Origin: a bacterium
GTDB taxonomy: Bacteria > Hydrothermota > Tepidihabitantia > SM23-42 > JAOAFX01
Length of the DNA stretch: 64,000 nt
Reading direction: 5' to 3'
Assembly (NCBI GenBank): GCA_036796695.1
Contig: DAIRCK010000001.1
Location: 128,145-192,144 of the forward strand
Position 1 is the stretch's first letter, and every line of letters starts with the position of its first letter. This document shows positions 912 through 63,775 of this stretch, piece after piece. Under the pieces are notes generated by a model. That model did not search any database. It saw nothing but the letters and a program-made list of their open reading frames with translations, and had not been told where the DNA came from. The position numbers and the translations under genes are program-made.

Positions 912-1266
912 TGGTGGAGGCGGCGGGAATCGAACCCGCGTCCAGAATGCTTCAGTGAAGAGGACTACATACTTATTCCTTTTATGAATCTCCCCTTATC
1001 TTGACCAAAGGACAGGTTGATAAGGGCAAGCCTTTTAAGAGAACCACTATCAGACCCAAAGGCTAAGGAATGATAGGGTTTTGCCCTTTATGACGCCTGT
1101 TCCGGGACGGGCAATTCCCGGGCAGACGTGACTGCATTTATTTATGCAGCCAGTGCGTATCCTGTATATGCAGGATGTTTTTTCTCATGGTCGGATTAAC
1201 GAGGTGGCCAGGACCCTCGGTATGCCCTCTTTCACCCCATTCACCCTGTCAATACCGTTCGCCCCC
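912..1266 (-). ncRNA. ssrA: tmRNA (SsrA transfer-messenger RNA).
   Basis: The minus strand begins with GGGGGCGAACGGUAUUGACAGGG (tmRNA 5' consensus) and ends with GGUUCGAUUCCCGCCGCCUCCACCA, a T-arm plus CCA. The acceptor stem pairs 5' GGGGGCG with 3' CGCCUCC and includes a G3:U70 wobble, the Ala identity element. An internal tag ORF reads ...EKKHPAYTGYALAA-UAA-AUAA, a canonical YALAA degradation tag with a double stop. Confidence 0.85.
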
Positions 1267-26005: not shown

Positions 26006-26724
26006 TCGTCTCATTTATCTTTGCGCAAAACATTGATGAGGCGATTAAGTTATTCAATGCATTTCAATTTGATAAAGCCAGGGCATTGTTTGAGGACCTC
26101 GCCAGGGACGAAAACAATCCCCGCATTGCTGAAGTTTTTTATTATCTGGCGCGATTAACTGCTAATCCGGATTCTTCAATTTATTATTATCGAATGATAA
26201 TTGATAAATACCCACAGTCAAGATATGCAGATATTGCCCATCTTGAGATTGCTAAGATCTTTATTGGAAAGGAAAATTTCAAAAATGCCCTGGTTATACT
26301 GGAGCAGATGCGTAAAGACTACCCGAATTCAGAATTAAAGGATGAGGCATTATTCTGGACAGGCGTAGTTCTTATTGAAACCGGGAATAAAGAAACCGGT
26401 TACAAAACACTCCAGGAATTAATAAATACATTTCCTAAATCTATCTGGGCGAGCCGGGCAAAAAATCTAATTCCTTCAGCTATGCCGCAAAAAGAGTATT
26501 ATACAGTTCAGGTTGGTTCATTCAGAAACAAAGAGAATGCAGAGAAAAGGATTGAAGAATTGAAAGCCAAGGGATTTGATGCCCGTATCATAGAGGCAGT
26601 AGTTATGGATAAGACTTATTATCGTGTATGGGTCGGAGAATTTGAAACAATGGAACAGGCAAAATCCCTTGTTGCAAAACTTGATTCCTTAGGAATAAAA
26701 GGGAATGCGGTTAAAGGATACTAA
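25960..26724 (+). CDS. Tol-Pal-associated-like TPR protein with a C-terminal SPOR (peptidoglycan-binding) domain.
   Basis: Signal peptide, YbgF-like TPR region, and a SPOR domain ('YYTVQVGSFRNKENAEKRIEELKAKGFDARI...YRVWVGEFETMEQAKSLVAKL'). Confidence 0.7.
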   Translation: MSKLPLNRIISASALIVSFIFAQNIDEAIKLFNAFQFDKARALFEDLARDENNPRIAEVFYYLARLTANPDSSIYYYRMIIDKYPQSRYADIAHLEIAKIFIGKENFKNALVILEQMRKDYPNSELKDEALFWTGVVLIETGNKETGYKTLQELINTFPKSIWASRAKNLIPSAMPQKEYYTVQVGSFRNKENAEKRIEELKAKGFDARIIEAVVMDKTYYRVWVGEFETMEQAKSLVAKLDSLGIKGNAVKGY

Positions 26725-50370: not shown

Positions 50371-50456
50371 ATCCCTTCTTCACCCTTATTTACCCCTCTT
50401 TACCCTTATTTACCCCCCTCTTCACCCCTCTTGTCGCCCTTTAGCCCTCTTGAGCC
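50371..50456 (+). repeat. Pyrimidine-rich degenerate tandem repeat tract (YYTTYACCC-like units) upstream of the repeat-protein gene.
   Basis: atcccttcttcaccc / ttatttaccc / ctctttaccc / ttatttaccc / ccctcttcaccc / ctcttgtcgccc / tttagccc / tcttgagcc. About 8 units of 8-12 nt, strongly C/T-biased on the + strand. Confidence 0.5.
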
Positions 50457-50555: not shown

Positions 50556-52478
50556 ATGAAAAATTTTAGTCATACTATTTTGATTATCCTATTTACCAGT
50601 TCTGCCCTCTTTTCTGCTAATACAGAAATTGAGACAATCATAAAAAATGTAGCAAATAGAGTAAATGTTCCTGTATCAGATCTAAAGATTGAAAAAGATG
50701 ACCTTGAATTCTATGGGTATGGTAAATTCCGCACCAGGTTATTTGACCTGTTTATCAGAAATCCACTAAAGATTGACCCCTATATTAGAACCCTATCAAA
50801 AACCATCTTAAATAATGCTGATTCACTCTGGGCAATAAGTTATTTCTCCTGGGCAAGGATTGATGAAGGTGTGCGAAGGGGATTGATTGAGCGTCCAGAT
50901 GAAACTTTGATTAATTCGTTACCAAAAGGCGAAGAATTAAACCAGAAATTGATTATTCTATTACAAGACTCATACAATGCCGATACCACAGGGATTAAGG
51001 AATTGCCCGAGGCAATAAGAATCGGCATTTTTCTGATATTAACAGTAATAAAAAGTTCAATCGATTTGATACAAAAAGGGACTGAAGATTTATCAGTGAA
51101 TGATGCACAAAAAATTGTTCAACAACTTGCTGAATCTGGAGAAGATGGATTATCCAATCGCCATATTGAAACTTTGATTGAGCGGATTGATTTCAAGTTA
51201 ATTTCCGCAGGTGCAATAGATTTATCTTATGTTTTGCAGACTGTGATAGATTTGATGAGGAACGAAGAATTGAAGAAAAAAATTAAGATAGATACAAAAT
51301 TGGGTCCGGTTGTTCTTGGTTCAAAAGAAGATGACCGATACGAACCCTTCCCCTATCTTTTAATAATTGATTTTGGTGGTAATGATACATATATGTCAGG
51401 TGGTGTATCAGACAGGAAACATCCAGTTTCAATCATCATAGATTACTCAGGAAACGACGAATACAACGGTGAGACTGGTTGCGGGACAGGTATTGCAGGT
51501 ATTGGGTTTGTTATTGATTTTGAAGGAAATGATAGATATACCGCAGAAAGATTTGGTCTGGGAACAGGAATATTTGGCCAGGGTATCATTCTGGACCTTG
51601 ATGGTGATGATGAATACAAAACAGAGATCTATGGTATAGGTGCAGGGCTATTTGGCACAGGCGTTATCTCAGATCAATCAGGCAATGACAAATACATTGG
51701 ATTTCAGGGATGCCAGGGATTTGGATTTGTAAAAGGCTGTGGTCTGCTCATTGATAAAGAAGGGAATGATACATATATTGCCCGTGATGATACTATTAGA
51801 TTTCCATCGCCACAAACAAAAGAACATAATGCAAGCCTTTCCCAGGGGGCTGGTTTTGGTGTAAGGGCAGATTATACAGATGGGCATTCATTAGCTGGCG
51901 GTGTAGGAATGTTGATTGATGGGAATGGCGATGATAAATACTCCTGTGGTGTTTTTGGCCAGGGCTGTGCATACTGGTTTGGCGCAGGATTTTTAATTGA
52001 TTATAATGGGAATGATATATACAATGGGGCCTGGTATGTTCAGGGCGCAGGCGCACACTTTGCCCTTGGGGTCTTAATTGATTCTACAGGGAGCGATATA
52101 TATACTGCAACGCATAATATGGCACAGGGTGCAGGGCATGATTTTACAATTGGAATCCTCCTTGATTATGAGGGCAATGATTTACATAATGCCCCGAACT
52201 TGAGCCTTGGTGCAGGAAATGCGAATGGAATGGGATTATTCATTGACATAAAAGGCGATGACAGATATACCACACACAGCGGTATAACACTTGGTAATGC
52301 AAACACGGCAAGCCGTGGGACTATTAGGGATTATATGCGAACAATTGGAATCTTTATTGATTGCGAAGGGAAAGATATTTATTCTGAAAAATTTGCCGGT
52401 GATAAAAAGATCTGGCGTCAGAGGCCACCATTAGAACCACCATTAAAAACAGAAACAGGGATTGGTATTGATTTCTGA
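50556..52478 (+). CDS. Secreted hypothetical protein with a ~250-aa N-terminal region and ~12 degenerate ~23-aa repeats ending in [GD][ND]DxY. Predicted beta-solenoid.
   Basis: Signal peptide 'MKNFSHTILIILFTSSALFSA'. Repeats include 'IIDFGGNDTYMSG', 'IIDYSGNDEYNGE', 'VIDFEGNDRYTAE', 'ILDLDGDDEYKTE', 'ISDQSGNDKYIGF', 'LIDKEGNDTYIAR', 'LIDGNGDDKYSCG', 'LIDYNGNDIYNGA', 'LIDSTGSDIYTAT', 'LLDYEGNDLHNAP', 'FIDIKGDDRYTTH' and 'FIDCEGKDIYSEK'. Each is preceded by a G-x-G-rich segment. Confidence 0.6.
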   Translation: MKNFSHTILIILFTSSALFSANTEIETIIKNVANRVNVPVSDLKIEKDDLEFYGYGKFRTRLFDLFIRNPLKIDPYIRTLSKTILNNADSLWAISYFSWARIDEGVRRGLIERPDETLINSLPKGEELNQKLIILLQDSYNADTTGIKELPEAIRIGIFLILTVIKSSIDLIQKGTEDLSVNDAQKIVQQLAESGEDGLSNRHIETLIERIDFKLISAGAIDLSYVLQTVIDLMRNEELKKKIKIDTKLGPVVLGSKEDDRYEPFPYLLIIDFGGNDTYMSGGVSDRKHPVSIIIDYSGNDEYNGETGCGTGIAGIGFVIDFEGNDRYTAERFGLGTGIFGQGIILDLDGDDEYKTEIYGIGAGLFGTGVISDQSGNDKYIGFQGCQGFGFVKGCGLLIDKEGNDTYIARDDTIRFPSPQTKEHNASLSQGAGFGVRADYTDGHSLAGGVGMLIDGNGDDKYSCGVFGQGCAYWFGAGFLIDYNGNDIYNGAWYVQGAGAHFALGVLIDSTGSDIYTATHNMAQGAGHDFTIGILLDYEGNDLHNAPNLSLGAGNANGMGLFIDIKGDDRYTTHSGITLGNANTASRGTIRDYMRTIGIFIDCEGKDIYSEKFAGDKKIWRQRPPLEPPLKTETGIGIDF

Positions 52479-59661: not shown

Positions 59662-60523
59662 GACTGACCCATTTACATTCGGTTCTGTTTGTGCCCTGGG
59701 TAATTTTGACGGCATTCATCGTGCCCACCAGGAAATAATAAATAAAATAAAAAAAATAGCAAATGGTTTAAAAAAAACCGGTATTATTACCTTCAATCCT
59801 CCACCCGTATCAATTCTCCATAAGGATGGAATTTTTTTTCTTACAACAAAAGAAGAAAAGGAAGAAATCCTGAATTCACTCGGGATTGATTTTGTTTATT
59901 ATTTCGAATTTGATATAAATTTTTCTCAAAAATCTCCAGAAGAATTTGTCGAACTGATTTATACTTCAATAAAACCATCAATGGTAATCATCGGTGAGAA
60001 TTTCCATTTTGGTAAAGGACGTAAAGGAAATGCAAGTCTATTAAAAAACCTCGCTCGGAATAGATTTGATGTGGAAATAATCCCCAGGATAAAAGACCAG
60101 AATGGTGTAATATCAAGCACAAGAATCAGGGAACTTTTATTACTCGGGCATATCCCTGCTGCAAATAGACTATTAGGGCGAGAATATACAATAACCGGAG
60201 AGGTAATAAAAGGCAAGGGCAAGGGTGCAAAACTCGGTTTTCCTACAATAAATCTATCTATTAATAAAGATAAATTACTGCCACTTGATGGGGTCTATGA
60301 AGTAAAACTTGAAATTAAAGGTAAGGATTATCAGGGGGCAATGTTTTTAACACACAATGTAATTGAAGTCCATATATTAGATTTTTCAGGTAATTTATAC
60401 GGTCAGAAAATAAGTACAAAATTGGTGAAAAGATTGCGGGCGATAAAAAAATTTCCTGATGATGAATCATTAAAAAAGGCGATTGCGGATGATATAAAAA
60501 GAATCAAAGACCCTAAAATTTAA
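59642..60523 (+). CDS. ribF: Bifunctional riboflavin kinase / FMN adenylyltransferase.
   Basis: 'ALGNFDGIHRAHQ' (FAD synthetase HxGH-like) and the C-terminal riboflavin kinase region 'GRKLGFPTINL', 'GVYEV'. Confidence 0.85.
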   Translation: MQVLYNKTDPFTFGSVCALGNFDGIHRAHQEIINKIKKIANGLKKTGIITFNPPPVSILHKDGIFFLTTKEEKEEILNSLGIDFVYYFEFDINFSQKSPEEFVELIYTSIKPSMVIIGENFHFGKGRKGNASLLKNLARNRFDVEIIPRIKDQNGVISSTRIRELLLLGHIPAANRLLGREYTITGEVIKGKGKGAKLGFPTINLSINKDKLLPLDGVYEVKLEIKGKDYQGAMFLTHNVIEVHILDFSGNLYGQKISTKLVKRLRAIKKFPDDESLKKAIADDIKRIKDPKI

Positions 60524-62324
60524 ATCCCTTTTCCCTAAAAAGCCTGACACAGGCATCCACTACTTTTGAGTCATAAAGAATATCCTTGTTAGAAATGATC
60601 TCGGTTAATACCACATCAATACTCCAGGCAGGCCGGTATGGTCTGTGGGTCATCATCGCCTCAACTACATCTGCAACTGAGAGAATCTTCGCCTCAAACA
60701 AGATCTTATCAGTCCTTAAACCAAAAGGATAACCAGAACCATCAAGCCTTTCGTGGTGTTGTAATATTATCTGGGCAACAGGCCAGGGAAATTCTATGGG
60801 TTCAAGTATCTCAGCCCCTATCCTCGGATGTTCTTTTACAATATCAAACTCTGCCTGGGTCAATCTCGCTGGTTTACTCAGGATTTCAGCCGGTACATAT
60901 ATCTTACCAATGTCATGCAGTATCCCAGCAATGTTAAGACATTCAATAGCACCTTTGTCAAGATTCAATTCCCTTGCAATGGCACAGGCAAGTTTGGCAA
61001 CCCGCCTCTGATGGCCAGCAGTATAAGGGTCCCGCTTCTCAACCGCAGATGCAAGGGCATCTACTGTCCCTTCCAAAAACATCTGATTCTTCTTTAAACT
61101 CTCTACCAATCTCTCTTCAGCATTATGTTTTTCTGTTATGTCATGCACAATTCCGACACCACCGATTAAATTATCATTTTCATCATATATCGGCGCACAC
61201 TTCATCTCGGCATAGATCACAGCAGAACCTGTTGTTGACTCATAGTATCCTGTATATGCGCCTTCCATTCCTTCAAAAACACTCTTTATTGCAGACAAGA
61301 CCCTCTGGTCTTTTAATCTATTCAAATCCAGACCGAGCAATTTTTCTCTTGTGGATTGCAGGATCTCAACAAAACGGTCATTAAAATCAGTGAGTATAAG
61401 GTCCTTATTGTAATAAAACACGCCTACTGGAATATTATGAAAAAGAATTTGATAACGTGATTCACTGCTCTTTAACTCTCTTTCTGATTTTCTCAATTTA
61501 GTAATATCACGGCCAATGCCAAATCTTCCTATGAACTTGTTCCCTTCTCTAATCGTATAGAATCGCAGATTCAAATTTACAATTGAACCATTCTTCTCCA
61601 CTGCCTCAACCTCATATTCGTCCTGCGAATATTGGCTTTTTTTGGCAATCTCAAAATGCTCCCTTGCAACAATCTGGCTTTTTGGTGTAAGAAAATCAGA
61701 AAAGTGCTTGCCAATAACCTCTTCTCTTTTATAGCCATATACTTCAATCTGGTGATTTACCAAAGTGAAATGCCCATTTTCATCAAGCCAGAATATCAAA
61801 TCATCAACATACCTATCGAACATATTATACAATCTTAGAATATTTTCCAGTTCAATAGTTCGCTTTTCAAGTTTCTCGACAAGTACTCTATTGTATGAAG
61901 ACTGAATATCCTCAAGTTTCGGAAATATACCAGTCCTGACAATTTGCTTTTTCTCGTAAAAATCCTTCACTGTTTGCTTAAGTCTTATAATAAAATCATC
62001 AATATCAACCGGCTTTCTTATAAAAAGGTCAGCCCCAAGGTCCATTGCCAATTTCTCATCTTCTTCTGAGACATAAGTAGCGGTATAAAAGATAAATGGT
62101 AGATTTTTCAATCTCTGGTCACTTTTACAAATTGACAAAAGGGTATATCCATCCATAACCGGCATCAAAATATCAGCAATAATAATATCAATAGAATCCG
62201 AGTTGAGTATCTCCAGAGCCTGTTTCCCATTCTCTGCACTGACCACCTCATAGCCATTATGTGTGAGAACTGCCTCTAATAATTTTCTCCCCTCTTCTTT
62301 ATCATCTACCACAAGTATCTTCAT
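60513..62324 (-). CDS. Response regulator with REC, PAS and HD-GYP (c-di-GMP phosphodiesterase) domains.
   Basis: REC ('ILVVDDKEEGRKLL...DIIIADILMPVMDGYTLL'), two PAS-like segments, and an HD-GYP domain ('GHQRRVA', 'GILHDIGKIYVP', 'HHERLDGSGYPFGL'). Confidence 0.8.
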   Translation of the reverse strand: MKILVVDDKEEGRKLLEAVLTHNGYEVVSAENGKQALEILNSDSIDIIIADILMPVMDGYTLLSICKSDQRLKNLPFIFYTATYVSEEDEKLAMDLGADLFIRKPVDIDDFIIRLKQTVKDFYEKKQIVRTGIFPKLEDIQSSYNRVLVEKLEKRTIELENILRLYNMFDRYVDDLIFWLDENGHFTLVNHQIEVYGYKREEVIGKHFSDFLTPKSQIVAREHFEIAKKSQYSQDEYEVEAVEKNGSIVNLNLRFYTIREGNKFIGRFGIGRDITKLRKSERELKSSESRYQILFHNIPVGVFYYNKDLILTDFNDRFVEILQSTREKLLGLDLNRLKDQRVLSAIKSVFEGMEGAYTGYYESTTGSAVIYAEMKCAPIYDENDNLIGGVGIVHDITEKHNAEERLVESLKKNQMFLEGTVDALASAVEKRDPYTAGHQRRVAKLACAIARELNLDKGAIECLNIAGILHDIGKIYVPAEILSKPARLTQAEFDIVKEHPRIGAEILEPIEFPWPVAQIILQHHERLDGSGYPFGLRTDKILFEAKILSVADVVEAMMTHRPYRPAWSIDVVLTEIISNKDILYDSKVVDACVRLFREKGFKF

Positions 62325-63060
62325 AATGCCTCCATTTTTTCCTTAATTTTATTACAAACTTAGTGCCTTTTTTGGGCTGGCTCTCTACAAAAATTTCACC
62401 TTTTAACAGACTCACAATTCTTTTACAAATATAAAGACCGAGTCCGGTTCCTTCCACATCAGGACGGTGTTTAAAATGGGTTATGCCGAATGGCTCAAAC
62501 AGATATTTTAAATCTTCCTGATATATTCCGCACCCTGTATCCTGAACTACAATATCAACAAATTCCTGGGTATCAGTAAGTTCAATCCTTATACCTCCTT
62601 TTTCAGTAAATTTTATCGCATTACTCAAAAGATTAATCAGTATCTGTCTTATCCTCTTTTCATCTGAGATAATCTCAATTCTATTTGAAATGATTGTCTC
62701 TATAGATAATCCTTTTTTCTCTAATGCAGGCTTGAATGAATCTACTATTTCAGATATCAGTTTATTAAGATCCAGAATGCTCAATGAAAGTCTTTCTCGG
62801 GTCAATTCAATCCCGCCGATTTCCACGATATCATTGATCAATGAAAGCAGGTGTTTTGCATTATTTTTTACAATCGTTAGTTGTTCTGCTTGCTCACTGT
62901 TTATTGCACCTGAATATTCTTTGAGTAAAATATCCGTAAAACCAATAATTGAGTTCAAGGGTGTTCTCAATTCGTGTCCCATTGTTGAAATAAGTATATT
63001 TCTCCTTTTATCTAACTCTTTCAATTCTTCATTTTTGACCTTATCTCGAAACGCATTCAA
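62302..63060 (-). pseudogene. Cytoplasmic core (HisKA + HATPase_c) of a sensor histidine kinase, apparently separated from its membrane N-terminus by a frameshifting 58-bp insertion.
   Basis: H-box 'MGHELRTPLNSIIGF', N-box/G-boxes 'LLSNAIKFT' and 'DTGCGI', 'GTGLGL'. The ORF begins with TTG inside a coiled-coil segment, 'KNEELK', that is duplicated in the upstream ORF. Confidence 0.6.
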
Positions 63061-63355
63061 TCCGTAGATAACCGGCTTTCAATTCTTCATTTTTGATGTT
63101 TAGTTGTTCATTCAATTCTTCTGCCTTTTTTAAAAGTTTATCTACCTTTTTGAACTTATTTAGATGAGTTTGTATGCAAACATATATTAATATACCAGTA
63201 AAAACAATATATACCCAGTCTTTATATGTTTGAATCCTGATTAATGTAGCAGGTTCAGTTACAAACCTCTGGACAATCCGGTCTGAAAAAAACATATATA
63301 ATACCCCCACAATTGCATATATAAAAACTACACGGAAGGCAATATTCTTCAACAT
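63041..63355 (-). pseudogene. N-terminal two-TM sensor segment plus coiled-coil linker of the same histidine kinase. The frame is broken from the kinase core.
   Basis: Two TM helices, then a coiled coil ending '...LNEQLNIKNEELK' and 11 out-of-context residues before the stop. Deleting the 58-bp repeat unit restores one in-frame HK. Confidence 0.55.
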
Positions 63356-63434
63356 AAACCTCCAATACCTATATTTTGATTATAATTAAGAAAAACAAAA
63401 TTGTCAAGATATTTTAAAACAAAAATACAGAATC

Positions 63435-63463
63435 TTGACAATCATCAAATTCTTATTTATAAT
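63435..63463 (+). promoter_or_regulatory. Sigma-70-like promoter (TTGACA, 17-nt spacer, TATAAT) overlapped by a 10-bp inverted repeat at 63401-63410 / 63432-63441.
   Basis: Consensus hexamers. The inverted repeat ttgtcaagat ... atcttgacaa has a 21-nt spacer, and its right arm covers the -35. Confidence 0.45.
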
Positions 63464-63472
63464 CCTGTTAGA

Positions 63473-63775
63473 ATGGTTTTATTATATCTAATCACTCTAT
63501 TAATTTCATCTGATAAAATATTCAATTTGGTTGCACAGTCTGATTCAAACTTTAAATCAATCCATCAATTACAATATGAAGAATACAAAAAGGACACAGC
63601 AAAAAATGCGATAAAAGATGATAGCAATATCAAAAATTTAGAAGGCATATTTGGTCAAAAACAACCGATGCAGACAATAATCAATCTTTCATTGATAATA
63701 ATAATAATAATTGTTCTTATCATTGGTATTTCAATATTTTTGATCGCCCGGAAAATCTACTTAACAAAAAAATAA
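63473..63775 (+). CDS. Hypothetical small membrane-anchored protein.
   Basis: ORF downstream of the predicted promoter. N-terminal hydrophobic segment and a C-terminal Ile-rich TM helix. No family match. The track's start at 63401 lies upstream of the promoter. Confidence 0.3.
   Translation: MVLLYLITLLISSDKIFNLVAQSDSNFKSIHQLQYEEYKKDTAKNAIKDDSNIKNLEGIFGQKQPMQTIINLSLIIIIIIVLIIGISIFLIARKIYLTKK

What the first reader, a model, noticed from the sequence alone, without database searches (positions are those of the whole stretch)
63018..63096. Histidine kinase gene split by a 58-bp insertion flanked by a perfect 21-bp direct repeat
The 21-mer ctttcaattcttcatttttga occurs at 63018-63038 and again at 63076-63096, a 58-nt period. 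It encodes 'KNEELK' in both minus-strand ORFs: the TM/coiled-coil N-terminal ORF (63041-63355) and the HisKA/HATPase core ORF (62302-63060, which starts with TTG). The two ORFs are in frames offset by 1. Removing one 58-nt repeat period fuses them exactly into a single TM-anchored sensor kinase (...LNEQLNIKNEELK|ELDKRRNILISTMGHELRTPL...).

The locus is therefore one of:
- a recent insertion or slippage inactivation of the kinase (pseudogene)
- a reversible repeat-mediated ON/OFF switch
- an assembly or duplication artefact

It pairs with the adjacent REC-PAS-HD-GYP regulator.
Basis: seen in the sequence. Interest (0 to 1): 0.55.

Follow-up and report, generated by a model that had tools for sequence, protein, structure and literature searches.

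The report
Sensor kinase gene broken by insertion
A small membrane sensor kinase gene in this WOR-3-like bacterium was knocked out by a one-off 58-base insertion (37 foreign bases plus a 21-base copy of the target site); this is an ordinary gene loss, and only the shape of the scar is unusual.

Summary
The 21-mer sits at 63018-63038 and 63076-63096 with 37 unique bases between. Removing one 58-nt period fuses the two minus-strand ORFs into a 331-aa two-TM HisKA/HATPase_c kinase.

- **The insertion is real DNA.** An independent Logan assembly (SRR1986369) carries it base for base.
- **It is specific to this lineage.** The syntenic sister lineage (~92-94% nt identity, three assemblies) and eleven further orthologues are uninterrupted. 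Both repeat copies share two substitutions private to the window lineage, so the duplication is recent.
- **The kinase looks dead.** A second lesion (A7 to A6, 62335-62340) shifts the last codons. These are the only frame-breaking indels in ~10 kb compared. Nonsynonymous changes are in excess on the window branch (13:4 versus 56:86 in neighbouring genes, p=0.004). The partner REC-PAS-PAS-HD-GYP regulator stays intact and constrained.

Best reading: a recent pseudogene.

It is not a reversible switch. Deletion between the repeats could restore the frame, but slippage cannot regenerate the unique 37 nt.

No source for the 37-mer was found anywhere. The anatomy (spacer-sized insert plus target duplication, target ending ATTGAAAG) resembles off-target CRISPR spacer integration, but that is untested and the 21-bp duplication is short for it.

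The parts
63359..63363 (-). Shine-Dalgarno GGAGG of the kinase gene, 3 nt upstream of the ATG at 63355
   Evidence: Read directly from the sequence. It is identical in the sister lineage.
63041..63355 (-). 5' fragment ORF (104 aa). It holds two predicted TM helices with a short loop and the start of the coiled-coil linker, then 11 out-of-frame codons from the insert (AGYLRIECVSR) and TAA.
   Evidence: It aligns to residues 1-93 of full-length orthologues.
63076..63096 (-). Repeat copy 1 (upstream in gene sense): TCAAAAATGAAGAATTGAAAG, encoding (I)KNEELK in the frame of the 5' fragment
63039..63075 (-). Unique 37-nt insert (gene sense CCGGTTATCTACGGATTGAATGCGTTTCGAGATAAGG). It has 46% GC and 4 CpG. 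It contains the TTG used as the 'start' of the 3' ORF and most of the TAA stop of the 5' ORF (63041-63043).
   Evidence: No second copy in the window at up to 3 mismatches or by blastn-short. No match in IMG/VR, metagenome, genome, phage or plasmid collections. Composition.
63018..63038 (-). Repeat copy 2 (downstream in gene sense), encoding (V)KNEELK in the frame of the kinase core
   Evidence: The orthologue has one copy, TCAAAAATGAgGAATTGAgAG.
62302..63060 (-). 3' fragment ORF (252 aa): HisKA (H-box HELRTPL) plus HATPase_c. The TTG start lies inside the insert and has no Shine-Dalgarno sequence upstream.
   Evidence: HisKA 2.4e-13, HATPase_c 5.2e-28 on the fused protein. The upstream sequence was read.
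62335..62340 (-). Second lesion: a homopolymer run of 6 (A6 in gene sense) where the sister lineage has 7. It shifts the last codons (KKMEEV* becomes KKWRHYEDTCGR*) and removes the ATGA stop/start overlap with the regulator gene.
   Evidence: The same base count is seen in the Logan assembly.
60513..62324 (-). Partner response regulator, REC-PAS-PAS-HD-GYP (603 aa), intact
   Evidence: Pfam hits. The motif HHERLDGSGYP is in the translation. Window-branch N:S is 14:34, like the sister branch at 21:45.

Best explanation
This is a recently inactivated (pseudogenised) small two-TM HisKA sensor kinase gene.

Shown:
- In the window lineage only, 58 bp were added at the junction between the membrane-proximal coiled coil and the DHp helix (after codon 93).
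- The 58 bp are 37 bp of sequence that does not come from the locus, plus a second perfect copy of the 21 bp of target next to it.
- Because 58 = 3x19+1, translation from the normal start runs 11 codons into the insert and stops. The result is a 104-aa membrane stub.
- The kinase core is left in another frame with only a TTG inside the insert and no ribosome-binding site.

Inferred:
- Little or no functional kinase is made.
- The downstream REC-PAS-PAS-HD-GYP regulator is left without its cognate kinase.
- Selection on the kinase has been relaxed.
- The lesion arose in a single event: a staggered (integrase- or transposase-like) break 21 bp wide, into which a short foreign or untemplated fragment was joined, with gap filling duplicating the target.
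- Precise deletion between the two 21-bp copies by replication slippage could restore the reading frame. That is a one-way reversion, not a switch.
For: - Repeat, period and exact in-frame fusion.
- The fused product is a complete HisKA + HATPase_c kinase. It aligns without a gap at the junction to 12 orthologues of 311-325 aa.
- The sister lineage is syntenic, 92-94% identical in nucleotides, and found in three assemblies (ENA ERZ781397, JGI 3300020153, Logan SRR7067822). It has one copy of the 21-mer and no insert.
- Both window copies carry the same two substitutions (codons 90 and 93) that are private to the window branch. The duplication therefore post-dates the split.
- The insertion is present identically in an independent Logan assembly, listed as seen in 2 samples.
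- In about 10 kb compared with the sister lineage, the only frame-disrupting indels are the 58-nt insertion and a 1-nt homopolymer contraction, and both lie in this gene.
- Substitutions were polarised with an outgroup (L006). Nonsynonymous changes on the window versus sister branch are 13:4 for the kinase and 56:86 for six neighbouring genes (Fisher p=0.0044). Synonymous changes are 9:8 versus 159:160 (p=1).
- There is no Shine-Dalgarno sequence before the TTG, whereas the kinase start and the regulator start both have GGAGG.
- No intact allele of the window lineage appears in the protein collection or in the allele-pattern scans.
Against: - All catalytic motifs (H-box, N, G1, G2) are still intact, so the inactivation is young and loss of function is inferred, not shown.
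- Substitution counts are small. The direct comparison of kinase N:S on the window branch against the sister branch is not significant (p=0.28).
- Private replacements at otherwise invariant columns (3) are no more numerous than in other orthologues (0-7).
- Reads could not be inspected, so a minority intact allele in the population is not excluded.
- Low-level re-initiation at the TTG, which would give a soluble kinase core, cannot be excluded.
- The single staggered-break origin is inference. No donor for the 37 nt and no enzyme were identified.
Confidence: 0.8

Rival explanations
1. The scar was made by off-target CRISPR adaptation. A Cas1-Cas2 integrase inserted a 37-nt prespacer into a repeat-like site in the kinase gene, and gap repair duplicated the target. 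The result is a minimal 'repeat-spacer-repeat' unit that happens to kill the gene. This is a proposal about the origin of the lesion and is compatible with the pseudogene verdict.
For: - Anatomy: a spacer-sized unique insert (37 nt) flanked by a perfect target duplication.
- P. furiosus Cas1-Cas2 integrates 37-bp spacers. It also attacks non-CRISPR sites that resemble the repeat, at paired positions on opposite strands (PMC6698737).
- In gene sense the duplicated target ends in ATTGAAAG, which is the terminus of a curated CRISPR repeat family. Rfam CRISPR-DR25 has consensus CUUUCAAU... on the opposite strand.
- The insert is compositionally unlike the host gene: 46% versus 33% GC, and 4 CpG versus 0.83 expected. 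It has no source in the window.
Against: - The duplication is 21 bp. The off-target spacing in P. furiosus is 30-31 bp, equal to the repeat length, and the Rfam family with the same terminus is 25 nt long.
- The Rfam hit is not significant (E=6.2).
- GAA-TTG-AAA-G is simply 'ELK' in a coiled coil.
- There is no CRISPR array and no cas gene in the 64-kb window. The rest of the genome could not be read.
- No protospacer was found in IMG/VR at up to 1 mismatch, nor in phage or plasmid records.
Confidence: 0.12
2. The locus is a repeat-mediated reversible ON/OFF (phase-variable) kinase: cells toggle between the interrupted and intact forms.
For: Two perfect 21-bp direct repeats 58 nt apart are a substrate for slipped-strand or RecA-independent deletion (established knowledge). 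That deletion restores the frame exactly.
Against: - The OFF state cannot be regenerated from the ON state, because the 37 nt are unique.
- Orthologues carry one copy and no repeat tract.
- The 1-nt contraction at the 3' end and the excess of nonsynonymous change argue for decay.
- No intact allele of this lineage was found.
Confidence: 0.03
3. The insertion is an assembly or sequencing artefact, and the real gene is intact.
For: The 21-nt repeat length equals a k-mer size that is common in de Bruijn assemblers. The window comes from a metagenome contig.
Against: - An independent assembly of public reads (Logan; k=31 unitigs, from my own knowledge of that resource) reproduces the insertion and the A6 run exactly over 5,960 nt, and is listed for 2 samples.
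- K-mers that span the repeat/insert junctions must exist in the reads.
- The 37-mer is found in no other contig that could have been spliced in.
- The elevated nonsynonymous rate is independent of the indels.
Confidence: 0.04
4. The gene still works in spite of the interruption. Either it acts as two pieces (a membrane stub plus a soluble kinase core made by termination-reinitiation at the TTG 17 nt upstream of the stop), or recoding occurs (a +1 frameshift, or a T4 gene 60-like ribosome hop between the matched 21-nt segments).
For: - The two ORFs overlap by 20 nt, so coupling is geometrically possible.
- Matched 'take-off' and 'landing' sequences lie 58 nt apart, which is close to the 50-nt gap of T4 gene 60 (my own knowledge).
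- The catalytic motifs are intact.
Against: - There is no Shine-Dalgarno sequence before the TTG.
- There is no stop codon next to any potential take-off codon.
- The hairpin in the insert is no more stable than shuffled sequence: -9.5 kcal/mol, z=-1.3, matched by 18 of 200 shuffles.
- No slippery motif was seen.
- The insert is absent from all orthologues.
- Both halves show relaxed constraint: N:S of 6:4 and 7:5.
Confidence: 0.05
5. The 37 nt are the remnant of a larger mobile element: an IS that makes long target duplications, or a MITE. Most of the element was later deleted, leaving its two ends between the target-site duplications.
For: - The insert ends are a weak inverted repeat: CC(GG)TTATCT...AGATAAGG.
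- Some IS groups are reported to make unusually long direct repeats (my recollection of IS1634 and IS1182; not checked here).
Against: - It requires two events.
- The inverted repeat is only 6-8 bp and not significant.
- There is no other copy of either end in 64 kb, nor in any collection searched.
- There is no transposase nearby.
Confidence: 0.06

Closest known systems
Bacterial pseudogenes created by small frame-shifting insertions in two-component sensor kinase genes
   Same: - A single lineage-specific indel breaks the frame.
- Orthologues are intact.
- A second small lesion is present and constraint is relaxed.
- The partner regulator is retained.
   Different: The insertion is neither a simple tandem duplication nor an IS. 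It is 37 nt of unmatched sequence bracketed by a perfect 21-bp target duplication.
Off-target (non-canonical) spacer integration by Cas1-Cas2, as shown in vitro for P. furiosus (PMC6698737); that paper also cites in vivo 'spontaneous CRISPR loci generation'
   Same: - A spacer-length insert (37 nt).
- A perfect duplication of the target on both sides.
- A target that ends in the ATTGAAAG motif typical of one class of repeats.
   Different: - The duplication is 21 bp rather than a repeat length of 24-30 bp.
- No cas genes or array are in reach.
- No protospacer was found.
- The resemblance of the target to a repeat is not statistically significant.
Slipped-strand or short-repeat deletion substrates, such as precise excision between short direct repeats
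   Same: Two identical 21-bp repeats 58 nt apart. Deleting one period restores the wild-type frame exactly.
   Different: The process is one-directional. It is not a contingency locus, because the inserted 37 nt cannot be re-created.
Translational bypassing in phage T4 gene 60
   Same: A coding gap of about 50-60 nt lies between matched sequences.
   Different: - No stop codon is adjacent to the take-off site.
- There is no significant take-off hairpin.
- The gap is not conserved in any relative.
- The gene shows relaxed selection.

Membership tests
HisKA-type two-component sensor histidine kinase (small, two-TM, short-loop type) | HisKA (DHp) domain with a phospho-acceptor His in the H-box | tested here: met
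   PF00512 hits residues 99-160 of the fused protein with E=2.4e-13. The H-box HELRTPL aligns with the orthologues.
HisKA-type two-component sensor histidine kinase (small, two-TM, short-loop type) | HATPase_c catalytic domain with N, G1 and G2 boxes | tested here: met
   PF02518 hits residues 212-320 with E=5.2e-28. N222/N226, D253-G255-G257 and G283-G285-G287 are invariant columns.
HisKA-type two-component sensor histidine kinase (small, two-TM, short-loop type) | One continuous reading frame joining the membrane anchor to the kinase core | tested here: not met
   The frame is broken by the 58-nt insertion. The two ORFs are 104 and 252 aa, offset by 1. All 12 orthologues are continuous.
Pseudogene (recent) | Frame disruption relative to intact orthologues at a syntenic locus | tested here: met
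Pseudogene (recent) | Relaxed purifying selection on the affected lineage | tested here: met
   Nonsynonymous changes are 13:4 versus 56:86, p=0.0044. Synonymous changes are 9:8 versus 159:160. The counts are small.
Pseudogene (recent) | No functional product made | not testable with these tools
   This needs transcript or protein data. The only evidence here is indirect: no Shine-Dalgarno sequence before the TTG.
Phase-variable (contingency) locus | A mechanism that can regenerate both states | tested here: not met
   The 37 nt are unique in the window and absent from the intact orthologue, so OFF cannot be re-formed from ON.
Phase-variable (contingency) locus | Both states present in one population | not testable with these tools
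   Reads are not available. No intact allele of this lineage appears in any collection searched.
Off-target Cas1-Cas2 spacer integration (neo-CRISPR unit) | Spacer-length insert flanked by a perfect target duplication | tested here: met
   37 nt flanked by 2 x 21 nt, both perfect
Off-target Cas1-Cas2 spacer integration (neo-CRISPR unit) | Duplication length equal to the resident repeat length | tested here: inconclusive
   The resident array is unknown. 21 bp is shorter than the 30-31 bp spacing of P. furiosus and the 25-nt Rfam family that shares the terminus.
Off-target Cas1-Cas2 spacer integration (neo-CRISPR unit) | cas1/cas2 and a CRISPR array in the same genome | tested here: inconclusive
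   None in the 64-kb window. The remainder of the 222-kb contig and of the genome could not be read.
Off-target Cas1-Cas2 spacer integration (neo-CRISPR unit) | Insert traceable to a mobile element or other donor (protospacer) | tested here: not met
   No match in IMG/VR (exact, and three patterns that together tolerate any single mismatch), in metagenome or genome contigs, or in phage or plasmid records.
T4 gene 60-type translational bypass | Stop codon immediately after the take-off codon, and a stable take-off stem-loop | tested here: not met
   The first in-frame stop is 11 codons after the repeat. The hairpin z-score is -1.3.
IS / MITE insertion | Terminal inverted repeats, multiple genomic copies and a short target-site duplication | tested here: not met
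   The inverted repeat is only 6-8 bp and imperfect. There is a single copy. The target-site duplication is 21 bp.

The most novel reading that the evidence does not exclude
The 58-bp scar is a natural, in-genome record of off-target CRISPR adaptation. Cas1-Cas2 of this (probably thermophilic) WOR-3-like bacterium inserted a 37-nt prespacer into a repeat-like ATTGAAAG site inside a coding gene. This created a minimal repeat-spacer-repeat unit and knocked out a sensor kinase. It would be a wild example both of the fitness cost of adaptation and of how new CRISPR loci may be seeded.
Probability: 0.12. Interest if true: 0.6.

Novelty: new member of a known kind. Interest (0 to 1): 0.22.

Why it matters
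For annotation, the two ORFs should be called as one disrupted kinase gene. The REC-PAS-PAS-HD-GYP regulator in this lineage should be treated as orphaned. This is of local interest only.

The one thing worth a further look is the form of the lesion. A spacer-sized unmatched insert with a clean 21-bp target duplication points to an integrase-like single event. If it were tied to the organism's own CRISPR adaptation machinery, it would be a rare natural example of off-target spacer integration into a gene.

Tried and rejected
- **Source of the 37-mer.** I searched the window at up to 3 mismatches and by blastn-short with word size 7. I also searched IMG/VR with the exact 37-mer and with three patterns that together tolerate any one mismatch, metagenome and genome contigs with a 27-nt core, and phage and plasmid records. 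Nothing was found. The best plasmid hit had E=5.
- **A 16-nt match at 26553-26568.** It extends no further and is chance.
- **Tandem duplication of a 58-nt unit.** Rejected: the 37 nt resemble neither the upstream nor the downstream 37 nt beyond an 8-mer (read).
- **Hairpin or structured RNA in the insert.** Not better than shuffles. There is no Rfam family at gathering score. CRISPR-DR25 scores only E=6.2.
- **CRISPR or cas genes in the window.** None.
- **Other alleles.** A pattern covering both allele types found only the intact sister contig. A junction-peptide protein search found only the 104-aa stub, but only 118 candidates were scored, so this is a weak negative.
- **Walking along the 222-kb source contig.** This failed. 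Look-ups of the 252-aa product were not on record, and a gene at the window start returned only a 3.3-kb Logan contig.
- **Private substitutions at otherwise invariant columns.** Counting them did not discriminate: 3 in the window versus 0-7 in other orthologues.

Full report
**1. Observation**

The 21-mer CTTTCAATTCTTCATTTTTGA is at 63018-63038 and 63076-63096 on the + strand and nowhere else in the window.
- The bases on either side of the two copies differ, so the repeat is exactly 21 nt.
- The period is 58 nt, and 37 unique nt (63039-63075) lie between the copies.
- About 1.6e-5 such perfect repeats within 300 nt are expected by chance in this window.
- The repeat finder reports no comparable close perfect repeat.

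Deleting one period gives a 996-nt ORF that reads ...LNEQLNIKNEELKELDKRRNILISTMGHELRTPL....

**2. What the gene is**

The fused 331-aa product has HisKA (residues 99-160, E=2.4e-13) and HATPase_c (212-320, E=5.2e-28).
- Two hydrophobic helices separated by a loop of about 22 residues precede them. This makes it a small membrane-anchored kinase with a minimal external loop.
- The insertion sits after codon 93, in the coiled coil that links TM2 to the DHp helix.
- The downstream gene (60513-62324, minus strand) is a REC-PAS-PAS-HD-GYP response regulator with the motif HHERLDGSGYP.

The closest named relative is from candidate division WOR-3. The sister lineage's JGI sample number appears in hot-spring papers.

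**3. Is the insertion real?**

The 104-aa product is also encoded on a 39-kb contig of the Logan assembly of SRR1986369, which is listed for two samples. That contig is 100% identical to the window over 5,960 nt, including the insert and the downstream homopolymer.

The repeat is shorter than the k-mers of that assembler (my own knowledge of the resource). K-mers spanning the repeat/insert junctions must therefore be present in the reads. An assembly artefact is unlikely. I could not examine read-level heterogeneity.

**4. Orthologues**

Twelve orthologues of 56-91% identity run straight through the junction with no gap.

The sister lineage (P0001, 91% aa identity, 92-94% nt identity) is found in three assemblies from ENA, JGI and Logan, with identical gene order.
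- Its DNA has a single copy of the 21-mer, TCAAAAATGAgGAATTGAgAG, and no insert.
- Both copies in the window carry the same two changes (codon 90 GAG to GAA, codon 93 AGA to AAA). The outgroup shows these are private to the window branch.
- The duplication was therefore made from the already-diverged window sequence. It is a recent event specific to this lineage.

**5. Evidence for decay**

A global alignment of about 10 kb against the sister lineage shows only two frame-disrupting indels, and both lie in the kinase gene.
- One is the 58-nt insertion.
- The other is a 1-nt contraction of an A7 run to A6 (62335-62340). It replaces the C-terminal KKMEEV* by KKWRHYEDTCGR* and abolishes the ATGA stop/start overlap with the regulator.
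- The other indels are intergenic, apart from one in-frame 39-nt tandem-repeat difference in an ABC-2 permease gene.

I polarised codon changes with an outgroup (L006, the P0002 lineage).
- The kinase has 13 nonsynonymous and 9 synonymous changes on the window branch, with the shifted tail excluded.
- Six neighbouring genes together have 56 and 159 (Fisher p=0.0024).
- A relative-rate version controls for gene-specific constraint. Nonsynonymous changes on the window versus sister branch are 13:4 for the kinase and 56:86 for the other genes (p=0.0044). Synonymous changes are 9:8 versus 159:160 (p=1).
- The excess appears in both halves: 6:4 and 7:5.
- The regulator remains constrained: 14:34, against 21:45 on the sister branch.

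Caveats:
- The counts are small.
- All catalytic motifs are still intact.
- Private replacements at invariant columns are not unusually many.

The picture is a young pseudogene.

**6. Consequences, and how the locus behaves now**

- Translation from the normal start (GGAGG at 63359-63363, ATG at 63355) reads 11 codons into the insert and stops at TAA (63041-63043). This leaves a 104-aa membrane stub (shown).
- The kinase-core ORF begins at a TTG that the insert itself supplies. It has no Shine-Dalgarno sequence, whereas the kinase and regulator starts both have GGAGG.
- Little or no kinase core should therefore be made, except perhaps by termination-reinitiation (inferred).
- Deletion between the 21-bp repeats by replication slippage is plausible on general grounds (established knowledge of short-repeat deletion). 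It would restore the frame exactly. The reverse step cannot happen, because the 37 nt are absent from the intact gene. The locus is not a reversible switch.
- No intact allele of the window lineage was found in the protein collection or by a DNA pattern that matches both allele types.

**7. Origin of the lesion**

The 37 nt are not a copy of neighbouring sequence, so this is not a tandem duplication. They match nothing in IMG/VR, metagenome, genome, phage or plasmid collections. They are compositionally atypical: 46% GC against 33% for the gene, and 4 CpG against 0.83 expected.

Their ends form a weak inverted repeat and the RNA can form a hairpin of -9.5 kcal/mol. However, 18 of 200 shuffles fold as well.

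The simplest single-event explanation is an integrase- or transposase-like reaction. Two strand breaks 21 bp apart are joined to a short foreign duplex, and gap filling duplicates the target. This is inference.

The best-fitting known enzyme is Cas1-Cas2 acting off target.
- P. furiosus Cas1-Cas2 integrates 37-bp spacers. It also attacks repeat-like non-CRISPR sites at paired positions on opposite strands (PMC6698737).
- The duplicated target ends in ATTGAAAG, the terminus of Rfam CRISPR-DR25.

Against this:
- The spacing in P. furiosus is 30-31 bp, not 21.
- The Rfam hit is not significant (E=6.2).
- The motif is simply E-L-K codons in a coiled coil.
- The window holds no array or cas genes.
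- No protospacer was found.
- The rest of the genome could not be read.

I keep this as the most novel reading not excluded, at a probability of about 0.12. An IS or MITE remnant needs two events and has no support. Recoding by a T4 gene 60-like bypass or a +1 frameshift lacks the defining signals and is contradicted by the lineage-specific, decaying state of the gene.

**8. Verdict**

This is a histidine kinase gene recently inactivated by a 58-bp insertion, with a second small lesion and relaxed selection, next to an intact partner regulator. The kind of event is ordinary. Only the anatomy of the scar is unusual and worth a genome-wide check for CRISPR machinery and for similar scars.

Noticed in passing
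window 62335-62340: A homopolymer run of 6 where the sister lineage has 7. This frameshifts the last five codons of the kinase and removes the ATGA overlap with the response-regulator start.
   Followed up: yes
window 912-1266 (-): A tmRNA gene (Rfam RF00023, 165.5 bits, E=1.5e-65). It is the only Rfam family above gathering score in the window.
   Followed up: no
L002 ~520-650 (sister lineage; corresponds to L001 ~519, between the ABC ATPase and the first ABC-2 permease gene): The sister lineage has a 133-nt intergenic insertion that the window lineage lacks. It contains a G/C-rich palindrome (CCCCCTTACTCCCCCTTTCATAAAGGGGGAAACAGGGGG). It may be a small hairpin repeat element.
   Followed up: no
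L002 ~1440-1480 versus L001 ~1486 (start of the second ABC-2 permease gene): An in-frame 39-nt difference made of GGCACTGAA-type tandem repeats. The products are 297 aa in the sister lineage and 284 aa in the window lineage.
   Followed up: no
window 50373-50432: A short tandem array with period 10/20 (CCCCTCTTCACCCTTATTTA, about 2.7-5.8 copies), just upstream of the ORF at 50556-52478.
   Followed up: no
window 62690-63067 (+): A 125-aa ORF antisense to the kinase gene that spans the repeat. It is most likely a shadow ORF of the AT-rich coding strand, not a gene.
   Followed up: no
window 63401-63775 (+): A divergently oriented 124-aa ORF with a C-terminal hydrophobic segment and no Pfam family. 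The syntenic gene in the sister lineage is called as 100 aa.
   Followed up: partly
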